A DNA stretch of 55,617 nt. Origin: an uncultured Syntrophus sp. GTDB taxonomy: Bacteria > Desulfobacterota > Syntrophia > Syntrophales > UBA5619. Positions within the stretch are counted from its first letter, which is position 1, and each line of letters begins with the position of its first letter. The translations under genes and the position numbers were made by a program. Positions 146 to 42,932 of the stretch are shown here, one piece after another. The notes beneath the pieces were generated by a model that did no database searches, was not told the origin of the DNA, and was given only the letters and a program-made list of their open reading frames with translations. The stretch spans positions 1 through 55,617 of the forward strand of contig CAZINF010000003.1 in the NCBI GenBank assembly GCA_964540555.1, written 5' to 3'.

Positions 146-673
146 CTACTCAAACAGAAAACCCGAGGGGAAGGAGAGCCCCAGCAGGCGAATAAACAGA
201 ATGTATGAGACGACCGCGGTGATAAAGCTGATCACTATCGCCATCAGCCATTTTGACCGCTTCAGATACCAGATCGAAAAGGCGATGTAGGCAAATGTGG
301 CGAGCGGGAGCCCAAGCGGGTTCATAAGGGCGATGTAGCACCCCAGGCTCGCGAGCGTGACCAGGATCGTCCGGAACCCCTCCCCATCAGGCCATTTGAT
401 CGCGAGATCCGCCTCCCGTATGCTCCAGGATTTCAGGGCCAGTCCGCTTCCGCATATGAGGAGCAGGATGCCGACGGCCATGGGAAAGGTCCGGGGAGGC
501 AGGCGATGTGCGGCCCCTCCCGTGATGAACATCGACGCGGACATGATGAAAATGCCGAACAGGGCGATAAAACATCCCACGGCGATATCGGCAACTCTTT
601 GAGTCTTCACAACCACCTCCTGGTGCACTGAGTTTTTTCGAGGACGGCGCCTCCTGAGGTTTGAATCCGCCAT
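146..673 (-). CDS. tctB: TctB-family small membrane subunit of a tripartite tricarboxylate transporter
   Basis: 175-aa ORF with about four hydrophobic segments, lying immediately upstream of the TctA fragment. Size and topology match TctB. No tctC is adjacent. Confidence 0.6.
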   Translation of the reverse strand: MADSNLRRRRPRKNSVHQEVVVKTQRVADIAVGCFIALFGIFIMSASMFITGGAAHRLPPRTFPMAVGILLLICGSGLALKSWSIREADLAIKWPDGEGFRTILVTLASLGCYIALMNPLGLPLATFAYIAFSIWYLKRSKWLMAIVISFITAVVSYILFIRLLGLSFPSGFLFE

Positions 674-879: not shown

Positions 880-2790
880 CTATGCCTCCTGCAGGAGCTT
901 TTCGACCAGTTTCACCCCGCCGCCGGCGTCGTGGGCGTAGCCGTCCGCGCCGATGTCGCGGGCATACTTCTCGTTCACCGGCGCGCCCCCGACCATCACC
1001 TTCACCACGTCGCGCAATCCCGCACCCGCCAGCGCCTCGATCACCTGCTTCATCTGCGGCATCGTCGTCGTCAACAGCGCGGACAAACCCAATATCTCCG
1101 GCCGAAACTCCTTCACCATCTGGACGAATTTAGCAACGGGCACATCGACGCCGAGATCCTTCACCTCGTACCCCACCCCCCGGAGCATCGTGATCACCAG
1201 GTTCTTCCCGATGTCGTGCATGTCGCCCTTCACCGTCCCGATCATCACCCGGCCTTTTGCCCCCGCCTGCCCGACCGTCAGGTAAGGCTCCAGCGCCGAT
1301 ACCGCCTCGTTCATCACCCGCGCCGACAAGAGCACCTCCGGGATGAACGCCTCCCCGCTCCGGAATCGCTCCCCGATCACCTCCATCGCCGAGAGCAACC
1401 CCCGCTGCAAGATGTCATCCGCCTTTGCCCCGCGCTCCAAGAGCTCAAGAATGTGCCCCCGAACCGATACCTGATCCCCGCCCAGAACGTCGTCCTGCAC
1501 CTGGCGGAACTGCTCATCCCTCTCCGGCTCAGCCGAACCACGTTTCTCTACCCCGCTCACCGCCGACGGCGTCACCGGGCGAAACGCACCCCCCTCCAGC
1601 GGCAGACGCCCCTCTTTTTCCACCCGCTCCCCGATCCGCACCAGTCTCTCGAAAACCGCCTGCGGGGGGGTAGTGTCGGCGATCCCCAGGATCATCCTCG
1701 TCCCCGGGGCCACCGCCTTGAACAGGTGGTCCAGGTACCCTTCGAACTCCTCGTCCGTCGTCGACTCCCGCAAGAGCAAGGTCGAGGGGATCCCCCCGAA
1801 GATCGTCAGCGTGTCCGCCCACCGGCGGTAATACTCCTCGATCGTCACCTTTGTCATCGGCGCCGGGCAGACCGCTTCGGCCACGTGCATCCCCGAGTCC
1901 CGGATCAGGTCCATCAACCCTTCGTTCTCTCCGTCGCAATGGCAAGAGACGTATTTCCCGCACGCCCCGAGACGCTCGGCAGCCCTGCGGATCCAGGGGA
2001 GAAGCTCTTTTTCAAAATAGGGGGGGTAGGTGATCATCTCATCGTAGTTTCCCCCCCAGTGGACCATTTCGGCGGGCGAGGCGGCGGTCAACTGCAGGCC
2101 CTTGTCGTAGAACGGCGCCATGCTCTCGGCCAGGCCCCGCATCTCTTTTTGATAATCGCTGTAATGAAAGTAAAACTCCGTGGCATCGAGAAACTGCTTC
2201 TGGATGTGGTGAATCGGCGAAGCGCAGCCGGTGAAGTATGCCGTCGCAATCCCGTCCTCGCCGATCTCCTGCTGCAGCCGCTCGAACTCTTCATAACGGG
2301 GAGCCAGGTCCGTGTTTTCGAACAGGCAGGCCACGATCGCGTAATCCTCACGCTTTTTGATGACTTTTTTGGCTATCCAGGGGATGGAGATGCCGGCCTT
2401 TTTCATCTCCTCGCTGTATACGGTGACGGTCCGCACCATCCCCTTGGGCGTATGGTATTCAACAGTTGTGCGCCCCTCTTCCCGCTGGATGCGGATCTCC
2501 ACCTTCGGCGAAAAAACGACGCGGACGACCTGCTCCCTGAGGGAGAAAATTCCCAGCGCGCGGTGGAGCATCGCGTCCGGTTCCGGTTGGTTGGCAAAAT
2601 CGGGAACGGCTTTGTGTAAAGCCCATCCCTCGGCGCGGCAGATCTGGTCCGGACTCTTCCCCCTGTGCCTCTCCGGCAGGGTATGGGCGAGGGCGTTGGC
2701 GTTGTGCCACAGATCCAGTCTCGGAACGTAGGGGAGGCGATCGGCCATCTCGCCTTGGATCGCCTTGAGGATTCGTTCTTTATGTGTCAT
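880..2790 (-). CDS. Bifunctional methyltransferase/corrinoid-binding protein (URO-D/MtaA-like barrel fused to a C-terminal cobalamin-binding domain; CmuA-like architecture), paralog 1
   Basis: 636-aa ORF. The N-terminal part resembles uroporphyrinogen-decarboxylase-fold methyltransferases (MTHKERILKAIQGEMADRLPYVPR, SCHCDGENEGLMDLIRDSGMHVAEAV). The C-terminal ~210 aa carry the B12-binding motifs DxHxxG (GDMHDIGKN), SxL (LGLSALL) and GG (MVGGAP). Confidence 0.8.
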   Translation of the reverse strand: MTHKERILKAIQGEMADRLPYVPRLDLWHNANALAHTLPERHRGKSPDQICRAEGWALHKAVPDFANQPEPDAMLHRALGIFSLREQVVRVVFSPKVEIRIQREEGRTTVEYHTPKGMVRTVTVYSEEMKKAGISIPWIAKKVIKKREDYAIVACLFENTDLAPRYEEFERLQQEIGEDGIATAYFTGCASPIHHIQKQFLDATEFYFHYSDYQKEMRGLAESMAPFYDKGLQLTAASPAEMVHWGGNYDEMITYPPYFEKELLPWIRRAAERLGACGKYVSCHCDGENEGLMDLIRDSGMHVAEAVCPAPMTKVTIEEYYRRWADTLTIFGGIPSTLLLRESTTDEEFEGYLDHLFKAVAPGTRMILGIADTTPPQAVFERLVRIGERVEKEGRLPLEGGAFRPVTPSAVSGVEKRGSAEPERDEQFRQVQDDVLGGDQVSVRGHILELLERGAKADDILQRGLLSAMEVIGERFRSGEAFIPEVLLSARVMNEAVSALEPYLTVGQAGAKGRVMIGTVKGDMHDIGKNLVITMLRGVGYEVKDLGVDVPVAKFVQMVKEFRPEILGLSALLTTTMPQMKQVIEALAGAGLRDVVKVMVGGAPVNEKYARDIGADGYAHDAGGGVKLVEKLLQEA

Positions 2791-2866: not shown

Positions 2867-3853
2867 TCAGTTTACGGGATAATGGCAGCTCAGCCAATGA
2901 TCCGGTTCGATTTCAACAAACTCCGGCGCAACCCGTTCGCACTCCCCACGGCGATAGGGACAGCGGGGGTGAAAGACGCACCCCGAAGGGGGGTTGATCG
3001 GCGACGGGACGTCCCCGGGCAGGATGATCTTTTGTTTCAGGATCTTGGGATCCGGCATGGGGACGGACGAAAGCAGGGCCTCCGTGTAGGGATGGCGGGG
3101 CCGCTCGTAAATATTCCCGACCCCCGCCAGTTCCATCACCTTGCCCAGGTACATCACGGCCACCCGGTCGCTCATGTACTCCACCACGCGCAAATCGTGC
3201 GCAATGAACAGGTACGTGAGCTGGAACTCCTTCTGAAGATCCCGCAGCAGGTTGAGGACCTGCGCCTGGATCGATACATCGAGGGCCGATACCGGTTCGT
3301 CGGCGATGATCAGGCGGGGACGCAGGACAAGGGTGCGGGCGATGGCGATACGCTGGCGTTGTCCCCCGCTGAACTGGTGGGGATAGCGCTTCATGTCTTC
3401 CGGACGGAACCCCACCCGGGCAAGGACTTCCGCCACCCGGTCGCGAATCTCCCCCCGGGATCGGCACAGCTTGTGAATCCGCAGAGGCTCGGCGACGATC
3501 CGCTCTACACTCATCCGGGTGTCCAGGGCGGCGTAGGGGTCCTGAAAGATCACGGTCATCTTCTGTCTGAGCGGGTGCATCTCCGCATCGCTGAGGGCAA
3601 GGATGTCTTTCCCCTCGAACCGGACCCGGCCTGCCGTCGGTTCGATGAGCCTCAGCAGCATTCGTCCCACCGTGGTCTTGCCGCAACCGCTCTCCCCCAC
3701 CAGCCCCAGGACCTCGCCGGTATGAATCTTGAAGCTGACCCCGTCCACGGCATGGACGCACCCCACAGGCCGGGAAAAGACTCCTCCCCGGAGGGGAAAA
3801 TCTTTTTTCAGGTTCTCCACTTCGAGAAGCGGTTCGGTGCGATTAACAGACAT
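2867..3853 (-). CDS. ABC transporter ATP-binding protein, OppF/DppF type
   Basis: 328-aa ORF with Walker A (GESGCGKTT), the ABC signature (FSGGQRQR), Walker B (LIIADEP) and the Cys-rich oligopeptide-type C-terminal extension. Confidence 0.9.
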
Positions 3854-3918
3854 TTTCCACTCGTCGAGATATTTGGCAATCGCGATCCCTCAAGTTACAC
3901 AAAGGTCTCTTATCTCCC

Positions 3919-4911
3919 TTAAGTTCCATAGAGCCAGCAGGCCGCCTGGCGGCCGGAAGCGGGCACGAACAGGCCCGGGGTCTTTTCCCCGCAAACATCC
4001 ATCTTCCTGGAACAGCGCGGATGAAAGGGACAGCCCAACGGCATGTTCGTCAGTGCGGGAACCATCCCCTTGATCTCGCTCAGCCTCGATTTCTCCCGGA
4101 TGGCTCTGTCCGACGGGATGCTCCCCAGGAGCCCCAGGGTATAAGGGTGGCAGGGGTTTTCAAAAATATCGGCCACCGGCGCCTGCTCCACTATCCTTCC
4201 GGCATACATCACGATCACCCGGCGGGCGGTTTCGGCGATCACCCCCAGGTCATGGGTGATGAACATGATCGCCGTCCCGAATTTGCGCTTCAACTCATTC
4301 ATCAGCTCCAGGATCTGCGCCTGGATCGTCACATCCAGGGCGGTGGTCGGTTCGTCGGCGATCAGCAGACTGGGGTTGCAGGAGAGGGCCATGGCAATCA
4401 TCACCCGCTGACGCATCCCTCCGCTCATCTGGTGCGGATACTCGTGGAAACGCCGCTCCGGAGAGGCGATCCCCACTTCCCCCAGCATCGCCACCGCCCG
4501 TTCGCGGGTCGCGGACCGGGACAGGTCCTGATGCAGGCGGATCGCCTCGACGATCTGGTCTCCCACCGAATAGACCGGGTTAAGCGAGGTCATCGGTTCC
4601 TGGAAGATCATGCCGATTTCGCAGCCGCGGACGGAGCGCATCTCTCTGCCGGTGAGCGCTGTCAGCTCCCGCCCCTTGAACCAGATCCTTCCCCCCGCGA
4701 TCCGTCCGGGCGGGGACGGGAACAGCCGCATGATGGAGAGGGCGGTCACGCTCTTGCCGCAGCCCGATTCGCCCACCACCCCGAGGGTCTCTCCTCCCTG
4801 AATCTCAAAATCGATCCCGTCGACGGCCCTGGCCACCCCCCGAGCGGTATCGAAATAAGTTTTCAGCCCCTCTACCTTGAGAAAGACGGGCGGTTCACTC
4901 GTTTGGGTCAA
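3919..4911 (-). CDS. ABC transporter ATP-binding protein, OppD/DppD type
   Basis: 330-aa ORF with Walker A (GESGCGKS), the signature MSGGMRQR, Walker B (LLIADEPTT) and the C-terminal CPFHPRC motif. Confidence 0.9.
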
Positions 4912-4931
4912 CTATCGTCCTCCTGTCGTTT

Positions 4932-5879
4932 TCAGGTATGGCGGATTCGCGGGTCCAGAAAGGAGTAGCTGATGTCGGCCAGCAGGTTGAGAAAGGTCAC
5001 CGCCAGCGCCACCAGCAGCACCCCCGTCTGGAGCACAGGGAAGTCGTTGAAGAGGACCGCGTTCATGAGCAACCGGCCGATCCCCGGCAATGAAAAGACC
5101 ACCTCGATAATCACGATGCCGCCGATGAGACGGCCGATCCGCATCCCCAACAGGGTCACCACCGGAATGAGGGCGTTTCGCAGGACGTGACGGATGATCA
5201 CCTGGAACTCGGGAACCCCCTTGGCCCGCGCCGTCTGGACAAATTCCTCGTTGAGCACCTCCAGCATTGACGAACGGAGCTGCCGCATGATCTCCGCCGC
5301 AACCACCGAACCCAGGGAGATCGCCGGCAGGATCATGCCCTTGAGATTGCCGACCAGGTTTTCCCCTGGCGAGACATACCCCGACGAGGGAAGCCATCCC
5401 AGCCAGATCGAAAAGACCAGGATGAGGACCATCCCCAGGAAGAACTGCGGCATGGCGACGCCGCTCACGGCGATCACCGTTCCGGCGGTGTCCACCCAGG
5501 TGTTCGGACGGAGGGCGGAAAAGATCCCCATCGGAATCGCGATCAACAGGGCAAAGAGAATCCCCAGACCTAAAAGCTCCAGGGTAACGGGGAGCCTCTG
5601 GCCGAAGAGGGTCAGGACATGGACGCGGGTCCGGATGGAGATCCCGAAGTCGCCGCTGACGAGCGCCCCCAGCCATTTGAAGTACTGGACCACGATGGGT
5701 TTGTCCAGACCCAGCTCTTGACGGAGGTTCTGGATCATCGCCTCGCTGGCCCCTTCCGACCCGACAATAGAGAGCGACGGATCGCCCGGAAGCACCATGG
5801 AGAGGGTAAAGGAGATCAGGCTGACGACAAACAGCGTAATTAAGGTTTGCAAAATTCGTCTGATGAGAAAGGCTTTCAA
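4932..5879 (-). CDS. ABC transporter permease, OppB/DppB type
   Basis: 315-aa multi-TM ORF. The N-terminus MKAFLIRRILQTLITLFVVSLISF...LPGDP is typical of DppB/OppB permeases. Confidence 0.85.
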   Translation of the reverse strand: MKAFLIRRILQTLITLFVVSLISFTLSMVLPGDPSLSIVGSEGASEAMIQNLRQELGLDKPIVVQYFKWLGALVSGDFGISIRTRVHVLTLFGQRLPVTLELLGLGILFALLIAIPMGIFSALRPNTWVDTAGTVIAVSGVAMPQFFLGMVLILVFSIWLGWLPSSGYVSPGENLVGNLKGMILPAISLGSVVAAEIMRQLRSSMLEVLNEEFVQTARAKGVPEFQVIIRHVLRNALIPVVTLLGMRIGRLIGGIVIIEVVFSLPGIGRLLMNAVLFNDFPVLQTGVLLVALAVTFLNLLADISYSFLDPRIRHT

Positions 5880-5914
5880 TAGCGCTCCTTAACGCTGGAT
5901 CCCGTTTCTATGCA

Positions 5915-6742
5915 CTATGCACTTTGACTGAGCTGCTTGGGGTCGAGGATCAACCTCAGCCAGTCTCCGAGGACGGAGAAGGCGACAGTCGTCACATAGA
6001 TCCCCACCCCCGGCATCACCGAAAGCCAGGGGGCCCGTTCCAGCCATTTATAGCCCGTCTGGATCATAACCCCCCAGCTTGGGGTAGGCGGCTGGATCCC
6101 CACCCCCAAAAAGCTCAGGCTGCTTTCCAGGACGATCGCCGTTCCCACGGTGAGGGTGGCCTGAACGATGAGAGGCGCGGCCAGGTTGGGCAGCACATGG
6201 GTGAACAAAAGCCGGGCCGGCTTGCACCCAAAGGCCTTGGCAGCCATGATGAAGTCCCGCTCCAGGATCGAGAGGGCCTGGCCGTACACCAGCCGGGCGA
6301 ACAGCGGGCTGTAGACGACGGCGATGGCCACAATCACCGTCACGATACCCGGCCTCATGCTGGCCGAGAGGGCCAGCGCCAGGAGGATCATCGGAAAGGC
6401 CCAGATGGCGTCGACGATGCGCATGATGAGGGCCTGGATCGGTTTGAAATAGGCCGCCGCCAAACCCATCACCGTCCCCAGAAGGAGGGCGAAAAAAACA
6501 GAGACGAGGCCAACCACAAATGAGATCCGGGCCCCGGTCACGAAGCGGCTGAAAACGTCCCTGCCCAGATCGTCTGTCCCGAAGAGGTTCTTCCAACCGG
6601 GCGGATCCAGGGGCATAAACTGGACCGCCAGGGGATCGTATGGAGCGAGCCGGCTTTCCAGAATCGCAAAGACCGCCAGAATCAGCAGCGCCAGGATACT
6701 CAACCAGATCGATGCCCGCAGGGGAAATTTCATCTTCCTCAC
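5915..6742 (-). CDS. ABC transporter permease, OppC/DppC type
   Basis: 275-aa multi-TM ORF. The motif FGTDDLGRDVFSR is typical of DppC/OppC permeases. It sits before the B-type permease, an unusual order. Confidence 0.85.
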   Translation of the reverse strand: MRKMKFPLRASIWLSILALLILAVFAILESRLAPYDPLAVQFMPLDPPGWKNLFGTDDLGRDVFSRFVTGARISFVVGLVSVFFALLLGTVMGLAAAYFKPIQALIMRIVDAIWAFPMILLALALSASMRPGIVTVIVAIAVVYSPLFARLVYGQALSILERDFIMAAKAFGCKPARLLFTHVLPNLAAPLIVQATLTVGTAIVLESSLSFLGVGIQPPTPSWGVMIQTGYKWLERAPWLSVMPGVGIYVTTVAFSVLGDWLRLILDPKQLSQSA

Positions 6743-6805
6743 CAGAGAAAACAGCAGGGAAGGCGTCCTTCGATGCTCCCTGAATCACCTTCCCATCCCG
6801 CAGGA

Positions 6806-8383
6806 TCAGGCCAACCAGACCTCGCTTCCCACCAGCGAGCGCCAGTTGTTCCGCAACCCTTTGACTTTTTTGTGCGTCCCCGCGGCATGGGTAAGGGCTG
6901 TCGCAGAAGTGAGGAGCGCCTGATCGTAGACGATCTTGAGCGCCCCCTTCATCAGTTCGTGGCGTTTCGCCTCGCTGGAGGCCTCATTGTGTTCGTCGAG
7001 GATCCGGTCGAGCTGGGGTACGGAGATGTTGGACCAGTTCCCGGGCTCCTTGCTGGCAAGTCTAAACCGGTTGAAGCCGCCGATGTTGGTCGCCGCCTGC
7101 CAGAATCCGATCTCGAAGTCGTCCTTCTTCATGCTCTGGATCCACTCCAGACGCTCGGTCGCCTTCAGTTCCGTCTTGATCCCCACCGCATCCCACATCG
7201 CTTTGAGGAGTTCGCCGTAGGTGGTATCCGGCTCCCGGGAGATGACCGAGACACGGACCGTCACCCCCTTGGGATAGGCGGCATTGACCAGCTCTTTGGC
7301 CTTCTGGGGATTGTAGGTGTAATCGGGCCAGTCCTTGGGCGACCAGCCGGGCTGTCCCTGCGCGATATAGGGGTACTGGTGGGGGCGGGAGACGCCGAAA
7401 CCGGTGATCTTGGCAAAGCGGACCCGGTCGATCGCATAGCAGCAGGCGCGGCGCAGCTCCAGGCTGGTGAAAGGCCCCTTGCGCGGGTTGAACCCGCAGC
7501 ACACGTCCTGAAACTCGAAGGGGGGCATCTCTATATAGAGGAGGTCGGGGCTCTCCTTGATCCTGGAAACCTCGCGAGGGGGAGGGAAATGGACGGTGTC
7601 CAGCCCGCCGGAACGGAGGTCCAGAACCGCCTGGTCGATCTTCGGCCGGTAGTGCTCTTCCATCCCGTCCAGGTAGGGAAGGGCCTTGCCGTCGACCCCC
7701 TGCTTCCAGTAGTCGGGAAACCGCTCCATGACGACCTTCTCGTCAACGATCCAGTTCTTGTAGCGGAAGGCCCCGGTGCCGCAGCCTTTGCGGGCCAGCT
7801 CGTCGTCGCCGTGTTTTTCCTGGAAGCTCTTCGAAACCATTCCCGCCTGGCCACGGGCGGTGGAGAGGGTATAGATCAGACCCGCCGAAGGGTGCTTCAG
7901 GTTGATGGAGATCGTCTGTTCGTTGAGCACATCGACGCTCTCGATCTCTTTGAGATCCTGGGCCAGGAAAGATTTGGGATGCAGGCGCAGCCGGTCGAGG
8001 TTCCATTTGGCCGCCGCCGCGTCGAGCCTGCTGCCGTCGTGGAATTGAACCCCTTTGCGGAGGGTGAAGAGCAGCCGCTTGTCGCTCTTCTCCGCACGCC
8101 ACTCGGTGGCCAAGCTGGGGACCAGTTTGAATTCGGAGGTTTTCGGATCGATGATCACATCGACGAGGCAGTCGTACATCCCTCCGATGCAGGTGAAGGT
8201 CTCGCTGACCCGATGGGCGTCCAGACTGGGAGTGGTACGGTTCCGGGCATAGCGCCAGATACCGCCCCGTTTCACCGGTTCGGCGGCCCAGGTTGAAATG
8301 AACGGGCTCCCCGCGAAGGCCAGCGCCGCGGTCCCCACGACCGTTCCCTTGACAAACTCCCTTCTGGTCAATCCTTTCGACAT
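6806..8383 (-). CDS. ABC transporter substrate-binding protein, family 5 (Opp/Dpp/Nik type), with twin-arginine-like signal peptide
   Basis: 525-aa ORF with the leader MSKGLTRREFVKGTVVGTAALAFAG. Length and sequence are typical of SBP_bac_5 proteins. It is the first gene of the transporter block. Confidence 0.85.
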   Translation of the reverse strand: MSKGLTRREFVKGTVVGTAALAFAGSPFISTWAAEPVKRGGIWRYARNRTTPSLDAHRVSETFTCIGGMYDCLVDVIIDPKTSEFKLVPSLATEWRAEKSDKRLLFTLRKGVQFHDGSRLDAAAAKWNLDRLRLHPKSFLAQDLKEIESVDVLNEQTISINLKHPSAGLIYTLSTARGQAGMVSKSFQEKHGDDELARKGCGTGAFRYKNWIVDEKVVMERFPDYWKQGVDGKALPYLDGMEEHYRPKIDQAVLDLRSGGLDTVHFPPPREVSRIKESPDLLYIEMPPFEFQDVCCGFNPRKGPFTSLELRRACCYAIDRVRFAKITGFGVSRPHQYPYIAQGQPGWSPKDWPDYTYNPQKAKELVNAAYPKGVTVRVSVISREPDTTYGELLKAMWDAVGIKTELKATERLEWIQSMKKDDFEIGFWQAATNIGGFNRFRLASKEPGNWSNISVPQLDRILDEHNEASSEAKRHELMKGALKIVYDQALLTSATALTHAAGTHKKVKGLRNNWRSLVGSEVWLA

Positions 8384-8609: not shown

Positions 8610-10526
8610 TCAGTTCTCTCTCCCCAGGAGTTTCCCAACCAGTTTCACCCCGCCGCCGGCGTCATGGGCGTAGCCGTCGGCGCCGATGTCCCGGGCGTAC
8701 TTCTCGTTCACCGGCGCGCCCCCGACGATCACCTTCACTCCGTCGCCCAATCCCGAACTTCTGAGAGCCTCGATCACCTGTTTCATCTGCGGCATCGTTG
8801 TCGTCAACAGCGAAGACAAACCCAATATCTCCGGCTGAAACTCCTTCACCATCTCGACGAATTTAGCGACCGGCACATCCACGCCGAGATCCTTCACCTC
8901 GTACCCCACCCCCCGGAGCATCGTGATCACCAGGTTCTTCCCGATGTCGTGCATGTCGCCCTTCACCGTCCCGATCATCACCCGGCCTTTTGCCCCCGCC
9001 TGCCCGACCGTCAGGTAAGGCTCCAGCGCCGATACCGCCTCGTTCATCACCCGCGCCGACAAGAGCACCTCCGGGATGAACGCCTCCCCGCTCCGGAATC
9101 GCTCCCCGATCACCTCCATCGCCGAGAGCAACCCCCGCTGCAAGATGTCATCCGCCTTTGCCCCGCGCTCCAAGAGCTCAAGAATGTGCCCCCGAACCGA
9201 TACCTGATCCCCGCCCAGAACGTCGTCCTGCACCTGGCGGAACTGCTCATCCCTCTCCGGCTCAGCCGAACCACGTTTCTCTACCCCGCTCACCGCCGAC
9301 GGCGTCACCGGGCGAAACGCACCCCCCTCCAGCGGCAGACGCCCCTCTTTTTCCACCCGCTCCCCGATCCGCACCAGTCTCTCGAAAACCGCCTGCGGGG
9401 GGGTAGTGTCGGCGATCCCCAGGATCATCCTCGTCCCCGGGGCCACCGCCTTGAACAGGTGGTCCAGGTACCCTTCGAACTCCTCGTCCGTCGTCGACTC
9501 CCGCAAGAGCAAGGTCGAGGGGATCCCCCCGAAGATCGTCAGCGTGTCCGCCCACCGGCGGTAATACTCCTCGATCGTCACCTTTGTCATCGGCGCCGGG
9601 CAGACCGCTTCGGCCACGTGCATCCCCGAATCCCGGATCAGGTCCATCAACCCCTCGTTCTCCCCGTCGCAATGGCAGGAGACGTATTTCCCGCACGCCC
9701 CGAGACGCTCGGAGGCCTTGCGAATCCAGGGGACGATCTCCTTTGCAAAGAAGCTGGGATAGGTGATCATCTCATCGAAGTTGCCTCCCCAGAAAATCAC
9801 CTCCGCCGGCGAGGCGGCAATCTGGTCGATGATCTGGTCGAAAAAATTCCCGACGCTGGAGGCAAGGGCCTGCATCTGCCGGGCATAGTCGTGGTAGTGG
9901 TAATAGAAATCGGTAGCGTCGATGAAATATTTCTGAATGTGATTCATCGGCGAGGCGGCCCGCGTCGCCGTGGAAAAGGCCACACCGTCCTCTCCGATAT
10001 CGGCCCGCCATTTGACGAAGTCCGCCGCGTCGGGGAAGAGCGTGAGGTTCTCGAATATATACCCGACGACGGGGTAATCCTTGGCATCCTTGAGGACCGG
10101 TTCGGTAACCCAGAAAGCGGAGACGCCCGATCGCCTCATCTCCTCGGTATAGGCGATCGTGGTACTCACCGAACCGCGGGGGGTATGGTAATGGATCCTC
10201 GTCCGGTCGCCTTCCCGCTTAACCTCGATATCGACATCCGATGAAAACCGGAAACCGTAGACCATCTCTTTGTAAGAGAGGATCCCAAGCGCCCAGTGCA
10301 GGTTGTCTTCGGGCTTGCGGGGTTTCTGGTATTCAGGGTTGATCTTGTGCAAAGCCCACCCCTCGGTCCGGGCGATTTGATCGGGAGTGCTGTCATTATA
10401 ACGAGGAGGGAGGGTGCCGGCCTGGGCGTTGGCCGAATGCCAGAGGTCCAGGCGGGGCGCAAAAGCGAGGCGGTCGGCCATCTCGCCCCGGATCGCCTTG
10501 AGGATTCGTTCTTTGTGGGTCATCAT
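8610..10526 (-). CDS. Bifunctional methyltransferase/corrinoid-binding protein (URO-D/MtaA-like barrel plus cobalamin-binding domain), paralog 2
   Basis: 638-aa ORF with the same architecture and motifs as 880-2790. The C-terminal ~370 aa are nearly identical to paralog 1, and the N-terminal ~265 aa are only about half identical. Confidence 0.8.
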   Translation of the reverse strand: MMTHKERILKAIRGEMADRLAFAPRLDLWHSANAQAGTLPPRYNDSTPDQIARTEGWALHKINPEYQKPRKPEDNLHWALGILSYKEMVYGFRFSSDVDIEVKREGDRTRIHYHTPRGSVSTTIAYTEEMRRSGVSAFWVTEPVLKDAKDYPVVGYIFENLTLFPDAADFVKWRADIGEDGVAFSTATRAASPMNHIQKYFIDATDFYYHYHDYARQMQALASSVGNFFDQIIDQIAASPAEVIFWGGNFDEMITYPSFFAKEIVPWIRKASERLGACGKYVSCHCDGENEGLMDLIRDSGMHVAEAVCPAPMTKVTIEEYYRRWADTLTIFGGIPSTLLLRESTTDEEFEGYLDHLFKAVAPGTRMILGIADTTPPQAVFERLVRIGERVEKEGRLPLEGGAFRPVTPSAVSGVEKRGSAEPERDEQFRQVQDDVLGGDQVSVRGHILELLERGAKADDILQRGLLSAMEVIGERFRSGEAFIPEVLLSARVMNEAVSALEPYLTVGQAGAKGRVMIGTVKGDMHDIGKNLVITMLRGVGYEVKDLGVDVPVAKFVEMVKEFQPEILGLSSLLTTTMPQMKQVIEALRSSGLGDGVKVIVGGAPVNEKYARDIGADGYAHDAGGGVKLVGKLLGREN

Positions 10527-10634: not shown

Positions 10635-11237
10635 TCAACTCGCTTTGGGTAGATACATATGTGGAGTCGGGTAGGAAATAAAGGCGCCCGATATCCAGCC
10701 GATGATCATAAAAATAACGATGGCCGCGATGACCACCGCAACCGTGTACCCTAACGATTTCTCTTTTGGGGCTTTCATGAGAATGGGAATCCCTGTGTAG
10801 AGCAGATATAAGCTGTACAGGCCTAAGATCATGAGCATGCTCAGGGGGGGGATGACGACAAAAATCCCGGATAACCATCCGGCAGTATAGGAATATGCGG
10901 CCAGCTTGAGAGCCTGGTTCAGGTTCTTCTCACCGGCAAATTTCGGAGCGAGGAAGTCAATAATCAGAGCCAGGATGTACACGCCAATCAGTCCAAATAC
11001 ATATTGTACGACAGCAGAACCAATGGCGCTTGCAATCGGAATTCTGAATGTTGCCGTAAACGGCATACTGATGCCTATAAGCGACATCCCGATGATGGAG
11101 GCCACCGGTCCGATCGCTGCCAACGGCATGATATAGCTTCTATATAACTCTGAAGTCGTTGTGGTTTCGGCGGCAATGACCCCCCACTCGATTTTGGGTT
11201 GCAGCAATATCTTTTTGATGCGATCGACGATATTCAT
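10635..11237 (-). CDS. Yip1-family integral membrane protein
   Basis: 200-aa ORF with five predicted TM segments and an N-terminus ([19 protein letters not shown]) typical of Yip1/DUF1282-type proteins. Its start overlaps the htpX-like stop by 4 nt. Confidence 0.65.
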
Positions 11238-11836
11238 TTTTTGTCCTCCTTTATCAATTCAGTTCTCATCTTCATCAATCTTTCAATTCTCTTTTCAAGC
11301 GGCGGGTGCGTGCTGAATAAATTCATGATCGTTCCGCCGGAGAGAGGATTGACAATAAATATATGTGCCGTAGAGGGATTTGCATCCATAGGTCTTATCG
11401 TTGCCGCTTTTGACAGCTTTGCAAGGGCGCTTGCCAATGCTTCGGGCTTTCCGGATACCCTGGCGCCGCCGGCATCGGCATCGTATTCCCTGGATCGGGA
11501 TATGGCCATCTGGATGACTGTTGCCGCTATGGGTGCGATAATCGCAACCGCGATTGCGCTGATTGCATTTCCCTCCTCGCCGGAGCCGAAAAACATGGCC
11601 CACCGGGACAGCAGAACGACGGCAGTGGCGATGGTTGCCGTCATGGTGCTGATCAGAATGTCTTTATTTTTTATATGGGATAGCTCGTGAGCGACGACTC
11701 CTTCCAATTCGTCCCTGCTCAGGATTCTCAGGATCCCCGTTGTAAAAGCCACCGCCGCATGATCCTCGTTTCTTCCCGTTGCGAATGCATTAGGCGATTC
11801 CTTTGAAATAATATAAAAACCTCTACAAAGAGCCAC
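11234..11836 (-). CDS. htpX: M48 zinc metalloprotease HtpX homolog, N-terminally truncated (possible gene remnant)
   Basis: It has the HExxH site ([10 protein letters not shown]), the downstream REYDADAGG motif and the C-terminal [14 protein letters not shown], all HtpX-like. It begins with a GTG at the ...SPNAFATG region, so the ~85 N-terminal residues (TM1-TM2) are absent. An in-frame stop at 11840-11842 and the stop of the preceding gene at 11845 leave no room for them. Confidence 0.6.
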
Positions 11837-21911: not shown

Positions 21912-22922
21912 ATGAAACGAGTTCTATGGCTGAATGTTGCCCTCGCATTGCTCTATTTGGCGGTAGCGGTCGGCTCGGTGGCGGCTCAGGAATGGAAGCC
22001 AAACAAGCCTATCCGGATCATCGTCCCATGGGGGGCGGGCGGGTCGACGGACCAGGCGGTCCGGTCCATCACAGGAGACCTCGAAGAGGCGCTGGGGCAG
22101 AAAATCGTGATCGTGAACCAGCCCGGCGGAGGCGGGGCGATCGGAACACAGAGCGTGCTGGACTCCCCCTGCGACGGTTACACCTGGGCTTCGGGCGCGG
22201 TGAAGGATCTGGGAACCTACATGATTACCGGGACGGTGAAAACCAAAGTTCAGGATTGGAACCTGTACCTCAATTCCGCCAATGCCACCCTGGTTTCGGT
22301 CACTCCGAACGCACCGATCAAGGATTTCAAGGAATTTTTGGAAATGATGAAGAACGACCCCAAAAAGGTATCGGTGGCCGTAGCGGGAGTTCCGTCGGCC
22401 GGCCACTCGGCCATCGAGGCCATAAAGCGGGTGAGCGGCGGCGATTATAAACTCGTGAGCTACGACGGCGGGAACCCGGCGGTCATCGCCACGGTTTCGG
22501 GCGAAACGATAGCGACTCCCCAGCTCTTGAGCGAACAGATCGAGATGATCCGGGCCAAGAAGCTCCGCCCGCTCGCGGCGTTGACCCCCGATGACCTGAT
22601 CATCGACGGATACGGCACCGTTCCTTCGGCGACCAAGTGGCTTCCCAAGGTGGCGGCCGATCCCGTGTACTTCGGGATCTGGATTCCCAAGTGCGCCCCA
22701 AAGGAGATCGTCGAGACGATGAACAAGGTATGGAGGGAGAAAATCGCGACCTCCAAGGGCTTGAAGAACTTTGCCACCCTGCGCGGCCAGATCGTTGCGC
22801 CCTACTATGGCGAAGAAGCTCTGAAGAAAGCCTGGCCGTCGATTGTCAATGCGGCGTGGGGGCTTTCTGACGGCGGTAAAGCCAAGATAAAACCCGACGA
22901 AGCGGGTATGCCGCGTCCGTAG
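21912..22922 (+). CDS. tctC: Tripartite tricarboxylate transporter substrate-binding protein (TctC/Bug family)
   Basis: 336-aa ORF with a signal peptide and the Bug-family motif IRIIVPWGAGGSTD. Confidence 0.85.
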   Translation: MKRVLWLNVALALLYLAVAVGSVAAQEWKPNKPIRIIVPWGAGGSTDQAVRSITGDLEEALGQKIVIVNQPGGGGAIGTQSVLDSPCDGYTWASGAVKDLGTYMITGTVKTKVQDWNLYLNSANATLVSVTPNAPIKDFKEFLEMMKNDPKKVSVAVAGVPSAGHSAIEAIKRVSGGDYKLVSYDGGNPAVIATVSGETIATPQLLSEQIEMIRAKKLRPLAALTPDDLIIDGYGTVPSATKWLPKVAADPVYFGIWIPKCAPKEIVETMNKVWREKIATSKGLKNFATLRGQIVAPYYGEEALKKAWPSIVNAAWGLSDGGKAKIKPDEAGMPRP

Positions 22923-22941
22923 TCTTCGGCGGAATGTGAAG

Positions 22942-22977
22942 GGGCGGATGGCCAAAAGCGCTGTCCGCCCTTTCTTG
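22942..22977 (+). terminator. Intercistronic hairpin plus T-tract after tctC (attenuator or terminator)
   Basis: Stem GGGCGGA (22942-22948) pairs with TCCGCCC (22964-22970), followed by TTTCTTG. Confidence 0.45.
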
Positions 22978-23056
22978 ATGTCCTCCACGCGCAATGTGTC
23001 TGAATCCCCTCCTGGGTAACTTCAAAGTTACTCCTTGATAAAGCGCCCCCTGGGGC

Positions 23057-23569
23057 GTGGGTCGATATATGAAAAAAGCCGATTACCTGACTGGCCTGGC
23101 CCTTATCCTTTTGAGCGTCTATGTCCTGGTGGAGTCGTGGCGCATGCCGCGCATGGAGCACCTCCAGGCGCACCCCTTAAGCGTCCCGGGAATCGTTCCA
23201 GCGTTTCTAGCCATGGTCCTGTTGATCTTCGGTCTGATTCTGGTGGGACGCTCCGTCAGGGCAGGAGGGCACCGCCTCGGCGTGAGCCGGGAGGGCATTC
23301 GCAACACCCTCGCCGATCCCGGGAACCAGCGGCTGCTGTTGACGGCCGTGCTCACCTTTATATACGCCGGTGTGCTTGTAGGACACACCCCCTATATGCT
23401 GGTGACCGCACTCTTCATCTTCGTCTTTGTGTCAGCCTTTGAATGGCGCCGGGGGATGTCCCTCCGGGAAATAGGACGCGTAGGGCTGGCGGCCGCTATT
23501 TTGGCGGTTGTCATCGCCGTATCTATTTCCTACACCTTCGAGCGCCTCTTCCTGGTCACGCTCCCTTAA
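23057..23569 (+). CDS. tctB: TctB-family small membrane subunit
   Basis: 170-aa ORF with four TM segments, lying between tctC and tctA. Confidence 0.7.
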   Translation: MGRYMKKADYLTGLALILLSVYVLVESWRMPRMEHLQAHPLSVPGIVPAFLAMVLLIFGLILVGRSVRAGGHRLGVSREGIRNTLADPGNQRLLLTAVLTFIYAGVLVGHTPYMLVTALFIFVFVSAFEWRRGMSLREIGRVGLAAAILAVVIAVSISYTFERLFLVTLP

Positions 23570-23583
23570 GAGAATGGGGTATC

Positions 23584-25122
23584 ATGGGTATACTGATTGA
23601 CAACCTGGGACTCTTCCTGCAAGCGATCGGCGGTTTTATCACCCCGTGGGCGCTTTTTCACATGGCCTGGTCCACCTTGCTCGGGATCATCATCGGGGCG
23701 CTGCCCGGCCTCACCGCCACCATGGGAGTGGCGCTCGTCACCACGTTGACCTACAAGCTTCAGCCCGATCTCGCGATCCTCGTCCTCATCTGCGTGTACG
23801 TGGGGGCGATCTACGGCGGCAGCCGAACGGCGATCCTCCTCAATATCCCGGGGACCCCGGCGAATGCGGCCACGACCCTGGACGGCTATCCGCTGGCAAA
23901 GCAGGGGTTGGCCGGCCGGGCCATGGGCGTGGCCACGTCGGGGTCGGTTCTGGGCAGCATCATCGGCATGTTCTTTCTGGCCACGCTGGCGCCGCTGCTG
24001 GGGAACTACGCGCTGAAATTCCAGTCCTACGAGTTTGTCTGGCTGGCCATCTTCGGCATCGTAATCTCGGGGCACCTGACTTCGCTGGACGATCCCATCA
24101 AGGGATGGATCGCGGGATTTCTGGGCCTCTTGACCGCCATGGTCGGCCAGGAGGGGATTCACGCCTACGAACGGTTCACTTACGGGACCACCGAACTCCT
24201 GGGCGGCTTCGCCCTCATTCCCGCCATGGTGGGGGCCTTCGGCCTGGCCGAGGTGCTGAGCGCCATGCGGAACCCCCCGGCCGAAATGGCCCAAAACCCG
24301 CAGGACAGCGTGATCCCCAAACTGGAGGATATCACGAAATACTGGCGAACCATCATCCGGAGCGGGCTGATCGGGACGGTGATCGGCATCATCCCGGGGG
24401 TCGGCGAGGACATCGGGGCATGGGTTTCATACGCCGCGGCTCGGCGGAAGAGCAAGGAGCGGGAAAAGTTCGGGAAGGGCTCCATCGAAGGGCTGATGGC
24501 CGCGGAGACGGGGAACAACGCCGTCGTGCCCGGCGCCATCATTCCCGTGCTCACGCTGGCCATCCCCGGTTCGGCCCCGGCGGCGGTGCTGCTCGCCGCC
24601 ATGTTCATCCACGGGATCCGGCCGGGTCCCATGATTATGGTGGAGTCGCCCTTCTTCGTTTACCAGGTGGTGGCCATGGTCTTCTTTGCCACCATCGCCA
24701 TTCTCATTTATGGAATCGCGCTCACCAGGCCGCTTCTGAAGATCCTGGCGATCCCGCGGACCCGCCTCATGCCCGTGGTCTTCGTTCTCTGCGTCATCGG
24801 TTCATACGCCATCACCAGCCGGGTCTTCGACATCTGGGTGATGATCGGCTTCGGCATCGTGGGCTATATCCTCCGGGAGATGAAATACCCGATGGCCCCC
24901 CTGGTCCTGGGGATTATCCTGGGCGACCTTCTGGACAAAAACCTGCGCCGCGGCCTGGTGCTGACCGACGGGGACATTACCCCCTTCTTCACAAGGCCCA
25001 TCTGCATCGTCCTGTGGGTGATTACCTTTGCCTCGATCCTGATGACCATCGAGCCGGTCCGCCATGCTCTGCAGCGGTTCATCAAAAAGGTCCGGCCGGG
25101 AAAAAGGCAAAGCGCAGACTGA
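23584..25122 (+). CDS. tctA: TctA-family large permease
   Basis: A protein of about 512 aa starting at MGILIDNLGLF. It is multi-TM with TctA-like motifs (GALPGLTATMG, IPGVGEDIGAWVSY). The start is trimmed from the ORF-track 23443 to the Met after the tctB stop. Confidence 0.85.
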   Translation: MGILIDNLGLFLQAIGGFITPWALFHMAWSTLLGIIIGALPGLTATMGVALVTTLTYKLQPDLAILVLICVYVGAIYGGSRTAILLNIPGTPANAATTLDGYPLAKQGLAGRAMGVATSGSVLGSIIGMFFLATLAPLLGNYALKFQSYEFVWLAIFGIVISGHLTSLDDPIKGWIAGFLGLLTAMVGQEGIHAYERFTYGTTELLGGFALIPAMVGAFGLAEVLSAMRNPPAEMAQNPQDSVIPKLEDITKYWRTIIRSGLIGTVIGIIPGVGEDIGAWVSYAAARRKSKEREKFGKGSIEGLMAAETGNNAVVPGAIIPVLTLAIPGSAPAAVLLAAMFIHGIRPGPMIMVESPFFVYQVVAMVFFATIAILIYGIALTRPLLKILAIPRTRLMPVVFVLCVIGSYAITSRVFDIWVMIGFGIVGYILREMKYPMAPLVLGIILGDLLDKNLRRGLVLTDGDITPFFTRPICIVLWVITFASILMTIEPVRHALQRFIKKVRPGKRQSAD

Positions 25123-42400: not shown

Positions 42401-42932
42401 ACTCCAGCATGCGTTCGCCGTGTTCTGCCGACGCCCGGCGCGGCTGGGCGGTGAGACGCCAGAATTCGCCTTCGGACTCTGCCAGCGTGAAGGATTCCAG
42501 AACGCACGGTTGTCCGGTCGGGCCTTTCCCGATGAGGGCGAAGGCGCGGAAATTGGTCACAAGCACCATGCCGTACTTTTTCCAGTATCGCTCCACCTGC
42601 TCGGATCCGGCCACCCGGCGGACATCTTCAGACGGGGGTTTGGCTTCTATCACACCACGCGACGGGTTCTGAACCAGGAAGGGGTCCTCCTTGGCGTCCG
42701 CGCCGCGTGACTTGCGGTGGAACTGATCCGCGGAGAACAGGCCGCCGTCGGGAAGTCCGGCACCCCGGTTGGCAAGGTTGATGACGCAGCGGACCTTGGG
42801 GGAAAGACCTTTCCCTATGCCCGAGAGCAGCCGTTCCAACGCCGGATAGAACGAAGTCTCGGCCACGCTGGATCTTGTATCCCGAACTTCCCCCATCTCG
42901 GTCAGGTAACGTTCTATCAGGTTTTCGGGCAT
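39450..42932 (-). CDS. Large single-polypeptide N6-adenine DNA methyltransferase with N-terminal PD-ExK nuclease-like motif (type IIG/IIL or type ISP-related restriction-modification enzyme)
   Basis: 1160-aa ORF. SAM motif I is VLDPCCGTGAYL (about 41669-41710). Catalytic motif IV is NPPY (41318-41307, in LVILGNPPYNAF). The N-terminal candidate nuclease motif is GLPD (D62, 42749-42747) ... VIEAK (E96/K98, 42647-42639). The C-terminal WGYTIGGYQVIKKWLSYRE motif is, as I recall, seen in the type ISP/MmeI-like C-terminal domain. Confidence 0.7.
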   Translation of the reverse strand: MPENLIERYLTEMGEVRDTRSSVAETSFYPALERLLSGIGKGLSPKVRCVINLANRGAGLPDGGLFSADQFHRKSRGADAKEDPFLVQNPSRGVIEAKPPSEDVRRVAGSEQVERYWKKYGMVLVTNFRAFALIGKGPTGQPCVLESFTLAESEGEFWRLTAQPRRASAEHGERMLEYLKRVLLHNAPLAAPQDVAGILASYAHDARLRIDQADLPALTSLRQALEDALSLRFEGEKGEHFFRSTLIQTLFYGVFSAWVLWARRRDAKLSEKTGFADALRETAAPYAVAGGFDWRSAHYLLRVPMLRALFVQVADPARLGTLGLIEVLDWTAAALNRVDRVEFFRSFDEGHAVQYFYEPFLHAFDPELRKELGVWYTPEEIVRYQVERVDAVLRSELGLADGLTDPNVIVLDPCCGTGAYLRAVLRRIAATLHDKGGDALVANDLKKAAMERVFGFEILPAPFVIAHLQLGLELETLGAPLSDRSDPPERVGVYLTNALTGWEPPKEKPKQIAFPGFDDERDAAGRVKQEKPILVILGNPPYNAFAGVSPEEENGLVEPYKKGLISEWGIKKFNLDDLYIRFFRLAERRIAEVGGRGVVSFISNFSYLGDPSFVVARRRFLEGFDAIWLDCMNGDSRETGKLTPDGKPDPSVFSTEWNREGIRVGTTIGLFVKRSRFRDGETAVHFRHFWGATKRTDLLASLNAQDFDVQYETTKPRIDNRWSFRPSDVTSAYLGWPKLTDFCKTPPYNGPVERRGFALISMAKEHLTGRISSYFDAEVSNEEIERIYPPLMMTGNRIVGPEARRKVLSEFQYDESRIVRYPFKPYDVRWCYLENLRPLFSEPSPQLLNQRFQGNAFFITRDTADKDPEGSPFFFSPVVCDYDCISGHARHFPIRLNAGPSTRFSRQAVDNHTLPGMETESEKITANLSPSARTYLASLDLPDPDTDQETAELIWYHALAIGYSPAYLAENTDGIRQDWPRIPLPQAKDSLLTSTSLGRQVAALLDTEVPVPGVTAGKIRDDLKHIALFQRVDGKPANPESGDLDLTAGWGHAGKGGVTMPGKGKLIRREDGACDIFLNDNACWRNVPQPVWGYTIGGYQVIKKWLSYREKPLLGRGLTPEEVRYVTEMARRLTVLVALQPSLDDNYRNVIRTTYPWTKQ

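What the first reader, a model, noticed from the sequence alone, without database searches (positions are those of the whole stretch)
1148..1896. 749-bp perfectly identical core inside otherwise diverged paralogs (partner copy 8881-9629): mosaic pattern of recent gene conversion or module sharing
I aligned the two genes at a constant offset of 7733 nt. The stretch 905-1147 vs 8638-8880 is similar but has scattered mismatches. In 1148-1896 vs 8881-9629 I could find no mismatch by eye; the first differences are G/C at 1147 and G/A at 1897. The stretch 1897-1980 has a handful of mismatches. Beyond about 2000 the DNA diverges, so the N-terminal ~265 aa are only about half identical. The first ~55 nt of the two ORFs (2736-2790 vs 10472-10526) are again nearly identical. 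The invariant block encodes the last third of the barrel, the linker, the B12 cap and the DxHxxG loop. The variable block is the part of the barrel expected to bind the methyl donor or acceptor. This looks like two substrate specificities kept attached to one homogenised cofactor module. An assembly artefact is the trivial alternative.
Basis: seen in the sequence. Interest (0 to 1): 0.7.

Follow-up and report, generated by a model that had tools for sequence, protein, structure and literature searches.

The report
Gene conversion between two methyltransferase paralogs
Two neighbouring genes for vitamin-B12-dependent methyltransferases keep very different front halves but repeatedly copy their back halves onto each other; this is a clear but not unprecedented case of gene conversion limited to one part of a gene.

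Summary
Window 1148-1896 and 8881-9629 are identical over 749 nt at a constant offset of 7733. The flanks are 87-93% identical and the 5' 790 nt of the genes only about 60%.

The two genes (A, 880-2790; B, 8610-10526; both on the minus strand) encode a URO-D/MtaA-fold barrel fused to an MtbC/MtgC-like corrinoid domain. They bracket an Opp/Dpp-type ABC transporter.

Synonymous divergence is saturated in the N-terminal part (dS 1.8), zero in the core, and 0.3-0.4 in the flanks. Orthologues differ by dS 0.4-0.7 in the same core, so selection alone cannot explain the identity.

The same B-ABC-A operon occurs in three other uncultured relatives (L176, L171/L009, L177). All show the same mosaic and the same change point at gene nt ~790. 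Their identical tracts differ in length and position (143, 44 and 375 nt).

N-terminal trees group sequences by paralogue type (100% bootstrap). C-terminal trees group A with B of the same genome in three genomes (98-100%, also with third codon positions only).

This is recurrent, domain-restricted gene conversion, and the window carries the most recent tract. Closest precedents are mtrA-1/mtrA-2 and mtmBC/mtbBC in methanogens. Consensus collapse in assembly may exaggerate the "perfect" identity, but it cannot produce the mosaic.

The parts
880..2790 (-). Paralogue A, 636 aa. URO-D/MtaA-fold barrel (aa 1-~395), linker, B12-binding_2 cap (429-501) and B12-binding Rossmann domain (513-622).
   Evidence: ORF and translation. 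Pfam and NCBIfam. Structure model and fold search.
8610..10526 (-). Paralogue B, 638 aa, with the same architecture. Its N-terminal 263 aa are 53% identical to A.
1148..1896 (-). Copy 1 of the 749-nt identical tract, the most recent conversion tract (codons 299-548 of A).
   Evidence: zero differences, dS = 0.
8881..9629 (-). Copy 2 of the 749-nt identical tract, in B.
892..1147 (-). 3' tail of A, paired with 8625-8880 in B. 89% identical, dS about 0.33-0.37. Product of older homogenisation.
1897..2000 (-). 5' shoulder of the homogenised region, paired with 9630-9733 in B. About 91-93% identical, dS 0.31. It ends at the change point shared by all four genomes (gene nt ~790).
2001..2790 (-). 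Divergent N-terminal two-thirds of the barrel of A, paired with 9734-10523 in B. About 60% nt identity, dS 1.8, dN 0.38. Never homogenised.
2867..8383 (-). Opp/Dpp-type ABC transporter between the paralogues: SBP_bac_5 at 6806-8383, permeases at 5915-6742 and 4932-5879, ATPases at 3919-4911 and 2867-3853.
   Evidence: Pfam and NCBIfam. Same synteny in L171, L176 and L177.
146..673 (-). TctB (tripartite tricarboxylate transporter subunit) directly downstream of A.
   Evidence: Pfam. A orthologues in L003, L099 and L104 are also followed by TctB(AC).

Best explanation
A and B are old tandem paralogues in one operon (B, ABC transporter, A). Each encodes a corrinoid-dependent methyltransferase: a URO-D/MtaA-type barrel fused to its own corrinoid-binding domain.

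Homologous recombination between the two copies, which lie 7.7 kb apart in direct orientation, repeatedly copies stretches of the 3' ~1,100 nt from one copy onto the other without reciprocal exchange (gene conversion). The 749-nt identical block is the latest such tract in this genome. The 87-93% flanks are remnants of earlier tracts.

Conversion never passes gene nt ~790 (codon ~264). Upstream of that point the copies are only ~60% identical, which is too divergent to support recombination. A tract that crossed the point would also overwrite the part of the barrel that differs between the two types.

Shown here: the tract, its statistical significance, the age of the duplication, the recurrence in several genomes, and the fixed boundary.

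Inferred, not shown: RecA-type recombination as the mechanism; that the variable part sets substrate specificity; that homogenisation keeps both enzymes compatible with shared partner proteins.
For: 1. The tract is real and non-random.

2. Synonymous sites: dS for A versus B is 1.82 in codons 1-263, 0.31 in 264-298, 0 in 299-547 and 0.33-0.37 in the tail. Orthologues differ by dS 0.39-0.69 in the same core, so these sites are free to change.

3. The same B-SBP-permease-permease-ATPase-ATPase-A operon is present in L176, L171/L009 and L177. L176 is collinear with the window at ~88% identity. The duplication therefore predates these lineages.

4. All four genomes show the same mosaic. Within a genome, A versus B is 59-62% identical over nt 61-780, and 96.9, 92.4, 95.2 and 84.3% over nt 840-1900. 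The change point is at nt 790-792 in every genome. The longest identical runs are 749, 143, 375 and 44 nt and lie at different positions.

5. The trees disagree. In the N part, B-types are monophyletic (100%) and winB pairs with L176B (100%). In the C part, winA pairs with winB (100%), L176A with L176B (100%), and L177A groups with L177B and L170B (100%). Third codon positions alone give 98-100%. Protein trees agree and add the pair P0009(A)+P0017(B) at 100%.

6. Of the B-type N-domains among the top hits, 31 carry a different C-module cluster. Only the 4 B-types from the window's clade carry the A-like C-module.

7. In a related metagenome, the contig that ends inside B (L097) and the contig that starts inside an A-type 3' part (L104) overlap by exactly 127 nt, starting at gene nt 871. 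L099 starts at nt 786. Short-read assemblies of relatives therefore break at the edge of the homogenised region.
Against: - No reads are available, so identity of exactly 100% cannot be verified. Bubble popping or polishing in assembly could erase a few real differences.
- The C-terminal module is also the more conserved part at protein level across the whole family. Part of the N/C contrast is therefore plain constraint.
- L171 shows no recent conversion: its A and B are 84% identical in C and are not sister sequences. Homogenisation is therefore episodic, not continuous.
- The donor of the latest tract could not be determined.
- No experiment links the variable part to substrate choice.
Confidence: 0.85

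Rival explanations
1. Assembly or consensus artefact. The two copies really differ in the core, and the assembler collapsed or polished them to a single sequence, or built a chimeric contig.
For: A 749-nt exact repeat is longer than any short-read k-mer. Related short-read assemblies do break there. No read data could be inspected.
Against: - The mosaic and the two-copy operon recur in four independent assemblies from different projects. These include indel-rich assemblies that look long-read-derived (my inference from the frameshifts).
- L177 has a 375-nt identical run and L176 a 143-nt one.
- The contig path B-N, core, B-tail, ABC transporter, A-N, core, A-tail is the only linear path through such a repeat.
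- Copies that differed by ~10% would not be collapsed by an assembler.
- At most, a true identity of ~98-99% was rounded up to 100%.
Confidence: 0.07
2. One ancient domain swap (module sharing) created a chimeric B gene. The similarity since then reflects slow divergence under strong purifying selection, with no ongoing conversion.
For: The C-module is the conserved part of the family. All B-types of this clade carry an A-like C-module, whereas 31 other B-types do not. This fits a founding exchange at the base of the clade.
Against: - A single event predicts separate A and B clades for the C-module. Instead, same-genome pairs are sisters in three genomes with 98-100% bootstrap, also at third codon positions.
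- dS is 0 in the window core, against 0.4-0.7 between orthologues.
- The identical tracts lie at different places in different genomes.
Confidence: 0.05
3. Both copies acquired the core from an external donor (horizontal transfer or a mobile cassette) rather than from each other.
For: None directly. The C-module phylogeny is reticulate. For example, the tail of winA is closest to that of L090B.
Against: - No mobile-element features flank the tract.
- The tract lies in frame inside both genes.
- No closer external sequence was found. The best outside match to the core is ~89-90% identical.
- Intragenomic exchange between copies 7.7 kb apart is simpler.
Confidence: 0.03

Closest known systems
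[quoted passage not shown] 2015, PMC4632066)
   Same: Two paralogues lie in one operon of a corrinoid methyl-transfer system. The corrinoid-carrying domain is homogenised by repeated gene conversion while the other domain stays different. Trees group sequences by genome in one part of the gene and by paralogue in the other (abstract read).
   Different: That case is archaeal and concerns a membrane complex subunit. The unshared part there is a transmembrane domain gained by fusion. Here the genes are bacterial and soluble, the unshared part is two-thirds of a catalytic barrel, and the boundary lies inside a domain rather than between domains.
Recurrent concerted evolution of mtmB/mtmC and mtbB/mtbC in Methanosarcinales (PMC6053082)
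   Same: Paralogous substrate methyltransferase and corrinoid protein genes are homogenised repeatedly over long periods. The authors link concerted evolution to membership of protein complexes.
   Different: There whole genes with the same substrate specificity are homogenised. Here only the 3' 58% of a fused gene is homogenised, and the two copies probably have different specificities.
CmuA of chloromethane-utilising Alphaproteobacteria; fused corrinoid/methyltransferase proteins MtsD/F/H of Methanosarcina
   Same: A single polypeptide combines a URO-D-superfamily methyltransferase domain with a corrinoid-binding domain. The N-to-C domain order in CmuA is from my own knowledge. The fused Mts proteins are cited in PMC10418091.
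   Different: No sequence-level membership was shown. The N-domain hits no NCBIfam model and only weakly hits Pfam URO-D. To my recollection the Mts fusions have the opposite domain order. The substrate is unknown.
MtaA/MtbA-type methylcobamide methyltransferases (PDB 4ay7) and uroporphyrinogen decarboxylase
   Same: The N-domain model superposes on UROD and on M. mazei 4ay7 with TM 0.55-0.64 and E ~1e-7.
   Different: Sequence identity is 11-15%. The domain has an inserted four-stranded beta-meander (aa 89-124) and is fused to the corrinoid domain. The canonical zinc motif was not verified.

Membership tests
Gene conversion / concerted evolution between paralogues | In the affected segment, paralogues within a genome are more similar to each other than to their orthologues in related genomes. 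| tested here: met
   Over C nt 840-1900, winA-winB is 96.9% identical against 88% to the L176 orthologues. L176A-L176B is 92.4% and L177A-L177B is 95.2%. Same-genome pairs have 98-100% bootstrap support.
Gene conversion / concerted evolution between paralogues | The duplication is older than the divergence of the genomes compared. | tested here: met
   The same B-ABC-A synteny is present in L176, L171/L009 and L177. The N-part tree separates A and B types with 100% support, and dS is saturated.
Gene conversion / concerted evolution between paralogues | Homogenisation includes synonymous sites, so it is not explained by purifying selection. | tested here: met
   Core dS is 0 against 0.39-0.69 in orthologues. 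The third-position tree gives the same same-genome pairs.
Gene conversion / concerted evolution between paralogues | A discrete tract that is significantly longer than expected from the distribution of differences (Sawyer-type test). | tested here: met
   The observed run is 749 nt. The permutation maximum is 71 nt over the whole gene and 349 nt when restricted to the similar 3' part, with 0 of 100,000 permutations reaching 749.
Gene conversion / concerted evolution between paralogues | The physical reality of both copies and their junctions is confirmed by reads that span them. | not testable with these tools
   No read data are available. There is only indirect support from independent assemblies and from contig breaks at the repeat edge.
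Corrinoid-dependent methyltransferase with fused corrinoid domain (CmuA-like architecture) | A corrinoid-binding module consisting of a four-helix cap plus a Rossmann domain with the DxHxxG motif. | tested here: met
   PF02607 (1e-16) and PF02310 (1e-27) both match. The protein contains GDMHDIGK. MtgC/MtbC models score 183-223 bits, below their equivalog cut-offs. PDB 1y80 matches at 7e-54.
Corrinoid-dependent methyltransferase with fused corrinoid domain (CmuA-like architecture) | A URO-D/MtaA-superfamily TIM-barrel methyltransferase domain. | tested here: met
   PF01208 matches A weakly (19 bits, below the 23.9 cut-off) but is precomputed for most family members. The fold search hits UROD and 4ay7 with TM 0.55-0.64 from a model with pLDDT 74.
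Corrinoid-dependent methyltransferase with fused corrinoid domain (CmuA-like architecture) | A zinc site of the H-x-C-x(n)-C type, as in MtaA and CmuA. | tested here: inconclusive
   H284, D286, E288 and N289 are invariant, and C283 and C285 are conserved in at least 90% of sequences. The spacing is C-H-C rather than H-x-C, and C308 is not conserved. No metal modelling was done.
Corrinoid-dependent methyltransferase with fused corrinoid domain (CmuA-like architecture) | Sequence membership in a curated CmuA, MtaA or Mts family. | tested here: not met
   No NCBIfam model matches the N-domain. No PDB chain matches it by sequence, even with a profile.
Corrinoid-dependent methyltransferase with fused corrinoid domain (CmuA-like architecture) | Demonstrated methyl transfer from a substrate to the bound corrinoid. 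| not testable with these tools
   This requires biochemistry.

The most novel reading that the evidence does not exclude
The homogenisation is maintained by selection and is not just a by-product of proximity. Two substrate-specific barrel fronts must both work with one set of shared partners: a methyl-corrinoid-accepting methyltransferase and a reductive activase that dock on the barrel end, linker and corrinoid module. Conversion keeps the shared interface of the two genes in step, and the fixed limit at codon ~264 marks the functional border between the 'specificity' and 'interface' parts inside a single TIM barrel. This would be a natural, evolving two-heads-one-module design in an uncharacterised and very widespread bacterial methyltransferase family.
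Probability: 0.25. Interest if true: 0.55.

Novelty: new member of a known kind. Interest (0 to 1): 0.4.

Why it matters
This is a clean, well-replicated bacterial example of gene conversion confined to part of a gene. It has a boundary inside a catalytic barrel that is fixed across lineages, and tracts of different ages in four genomes.

It has three practical consequences:
- It marks which part of an abundant but uncharacterised family probably carries substrate specificity. The family is a URO-D-type barrel fused to a corrinoid domain, with more than 1,600 relatives at E <= 1e-20 in metagenomes.
- It shows that whole-protein trees of this family are misleading.
- It explains why short-read assemblies of these organisms break inside these genes.

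It does not reveal a new kind of mechanism.

Tried and rejected
- Exact-protein look-ups of A and B found no other contig.
It gave no named close organism.
- Sequence searches of the N-domain against PDB found nothing significant, either with the single sequence or with a profile.
- The full-length model's fold search was dominated by the B12 domain. A separate N-domain model was needed.
- Rfam gave no hit in the window and hence no cobalamin riboswitch. The promoter and terminator scans were uninformative.
- The donor of the 749-nt tract could not be inferred. The window core shares slightly more alleles with B-types (26:19, 56:39, 61:38, 45:42), but those references are themselves converted.
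- I tested whether the A-like/B-like pair of a more distant lineage sits on one contig. L172 has ABC transporter plus an A-like gene but no B upstream, and L175 has a B-like gene alone. The outgroup grouping Ao+Bo in the C-tree therefore shows recombination, but not necessarily recombination within one genome.
- The first bootstrap script, which used Biopython, timed out. I replaced it with my own NJ code.
- Purifying selection alone and a single ancient chimera were both considered and rejected (see rival explanations).

Full report
**Observation.** At a constant offset of 7733 nt, window 1148-1896 equals 8881-9629 without a single mismatch. This is the longest run, at 749 nt. The first mismatches are at 1147 and 1897. 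The 3' flank 892-1147 has 28 mismatches in 256 nt. The 5' shoulder 1897-1979 has four, and from about 2001 mismatches are dense. Overall the two ORFs are 82% identical with no indel between them other than one extra codon at each end of B. Random placement of the 350 differences gives a longest run of 31 nt on average, with a maximum of 71. Even when the test is confined to the similar 3' 1122 nt, none of 100,000 permutations reached 749.

**What the genes are.** A (880-2790) and B (8610-10526) lie on the minus strand. Both carry a B12-binding_2 cap and a B12-binding Rossmann domain with GDMHDIGK, which is the DxHxxG motif. The nearest curated models are the MtgC, MtbC and 'pyl_corrinoid' corrinoid proteins, all below their equivalog cut-offs. 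The best solved relatives are the Moorella corrinoid protein 1y80 and MttC. The N-terminal 400 residues have no sequence match in PDB. A model of this part (pLDDT 74) superposes on uroporphyrinogen decarboxylases and on the M. mazei MtaA-type methyltransferase 4ay7, with TM 0.55-0.64. Pfam URO-D is precomputed for most family members. The proteins are therefore corrinoid-dependent methyltransferases in which a URO-D-superfamily barrel is fused to its own corrinoid domain. To my knowledge this is the CmuA architecture, although no sequence membership in any named family was shown. The identical block spans codons 299-548: the last barrel strands, the low-confidence linker (396-424), the cap, and the start of the Rossmann domain including the His loop.

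**Context.** Between B and A lies an Opp/Dpp-type ABC transporter: SBP_bac_5, two permeases and two ATPases. Downstream of A is TctB, and upstream of B are Yip1 and HtpX. The rest of the contig looks like an anaerobe, with desulfoferrodoxin, aldehyde:ferredoxin oxidoreductase and NifU. The closest named relative of A is from a Syntrophales MAG. The family is large, with 1,675 proteins at E <= 1e-20 among the candidates scored.

**Selection versus recombination.** Nei-Gojobori estimates for A versus B are:

| Codons | dS | dN |
|---|---|---|
| 1-263 | 1.82 | 0.38 |
| 264-298 | 0.31 | |
| 299-547 | 0 | |
| tail | 0.33-0.37 | |

. In the same core, orthologues from other assemblies differ by dS 0.39-0.69 and dN 0.06-0.13. 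Synonymous sites in the core are therefore free to change, and their complete identity cannot be due to constraint.

**Age of the duplication and recurrence.** The same operon, B-SBP-permease-permease-ATPase-ATPase-A, is found in three other places:
- L176, a JGI contig collinear with the window at ~88% identity;
- L171 and L009, from ENA;
- L177, from ENA.

Identity between A and B within each genome is as follows:

| Genome | nt 61-780 | nt 840-1900 | Longest identical run |
|---|---|---|---|
| window | 59-62% | 96.9% | 749 nt |
| L176 | 59-62% | 92.4% | 143 nt |
| L177 | 59-62% | 95.2% | 375 nt |
| L171 | 59-62% | 84.3% | 44 nt |

Third-position identity in nt 61-780 is 42-49%, which is saturated. 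The switch from dense to sparse mismatches falls at gene nt 790-792 in every genome. The longest identical runs lie in different parts of the 3' region.

Neighbour-joining trees with 500 bootstraps give opposite answers for the two parts. In the N part all B-types form a clade (100%) and winB is sister to L176B (100%). In the C part winA pairs with winB (100%), L176A with L176B (100%), and L177A groups with L177B and L170B (100%). Third codon positions alone give 98-100%. Protein trees agree. They add P0009 (A-type) with P0017 (B-type) at 100%, and they group the C-modules of a more distant A-like/B-like lineage together at 100%. P0125 is the C-terminal fragment of the split B gene in L177. 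It falls in the 90%-identity cluster of the A-type P0009, which matches the near-identity of the A and B C-modules in that lineage. Among the top hits, 31 other B-type N-domains carry a different C-module cluster. At least three independent homogenisation events after the lineages split are needed, on top of an older exchange. This is recurrent, domain-restricted gene conversion, and the window holds the youngest tract.

**Artefact check.** I could not inspect reads. Several indirect arguments stand against an artefact:
- The mosaic is present in four assemblies from different projects. Some have the scattered frameshifts typical of long-read assemblies, which is my inference.
- In a related metagenome, the contig that ends inside B (L097, preceded by HtpX-Yip1 as in the window) and the contig that begins inside an A-type 3' part followed by TctB (L104) overlap by exactly 127 nt from gene nt 871.
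- Another contig (L099) begins at nt 786. Short-read graphs of relatives therefore branch at the edge of the homogenised region, as expected if their copies are also near-identical there.
- Copies that differed by 10% would not be merged by an assembler.

What remains possible is that a few true differences in the core were erased by bubble popping or polishing.

**Mechanism and meaning.** The simplest mechanism is RecA-type non-reciprocal recombination between direct repeats 7.7 kb apart. Tracts cannot extend upstream of nt ~790, either because homology collapses there or because such tracts are selected against. This is inferred, not shown.

Each N-type is well conserved among orthologues (dN/dS about 0.1-0.15). 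The two genes also sit next to different uptake systems. This makes different substrate specificities plausible but unproven. Orthologues in other genomes lie beside a Pterin_bind methyltransferase and stand-alone URO-D genes, which are candidate shared partners. Keeping the corrinoid module and barrel end of both enzymes matched to shared partners is an attractive reason for the pattern. It echoes the link between concerted evolution and complex membership proposed for prokaryotes (PMC6053082), but I rate it as speculative.

**Comparison with what is known.** Domain-restricted, long-lasting gene conversion has been described for mtrA-1/mtrA-2, where the corrinoid-binding MtrA domain is homogenised and the other domain is not (PMC4632066). 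Recurrent concerted evolution has been described for mtmB/mtmC and mtbB/mtbC (PMC6053082). A search for gene conversion in corrinoid methyltransferase paralogues returned only those cases. The present case differs in three ways: it is bacterial, it occurs in a fused and uncharacterised family, and its boundary lies inside the catalytic barrel. It is the same kind of phenomenon.

**Verdict.** The gene-conversion interpretation is supported and extended, since the process is recurrent with a fixed boundary. The functional gloss is plausible but untested. The case is a new member of a known kind and of moderate interest.

Noticed in passing
window 11234-11836 (-): The HtpX (M48) gene appears N-terminally truncated. 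It is 200 aa and matches only residues 88-273 of the 278-aa orthologue in L176. An alpha/beta-hydrolase ORF starts 8 nt upstream. The window, L090 and L097 also carry a Yip1-domain gene (10635-11237) between HtpX and B that L176 lacks.
   Followed up: partly
window 39450-42932 (-): A large 1160-aa ORF has N6_Mtase and Type_ISP_C domains. It is probably a single-polypeptide Type ISP restriction-modification enzyme.
   Followed up: no
window 21912-25122 (+): A second tripartite tricarboxylate transporter set is present: TctC at 21912-22922, a small ORF at 23035-23442 with no Pfam hit that may be TctB, and TctA at 23443-25122. It is separate from the TctB next to gene A.
   Followed up: no
L171 2522-4453 and 10001-11900; L009 6104-8032 and 13643-15475; L177 10001-11921: In the ENA assemblies the A and/or B genes, and several neighbours such as the SBP in L009, are split by frameshifts. 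This is most likely long-read assembly error rather than pseudogenisation. It was not resolved.
   Followed up: partly
L097 (end) and L104 (start); L099 (start): Contigs from Ga0194127 and Ga0194119 end or start inside these genes, with an exact 127-nt overlap between L097 and L104. The homogenised region fragments short-read assemblies of this clade and can create chimeric bins or gene calls.
   Followed up: yes
L007 112-987 and 3211-4212; L175 4339-5367; L171 20697-21770: Stand-alone Pterin_bind (CdhD/MeTr-like) and URO-D genes lie next to orthologues of B in other genomes. They are candidate partner methyltransferases. None was found among the window ORFs I scanned.
   Followed up: no
A aa 89-124 (window ~2419-2526, -): The model shows a four-stranded antiparallel beta-meander inserted into the URO-D-type barrel, with high pLDDT (>90). 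It lies in the variable, never-converted part and may act as a substrate lid.
   Followed up: no
L172 1-480: The contig carrying the A-like P0011 begins about 480 nt upstream of the SBP gene, with no B-type gene tail. One reading frame there (…NVQELQRKLYQKAKHDW*) resembles the start of a group II intron reverse transcriptase. That resemblance is from my recollection only.
   Followed up: no
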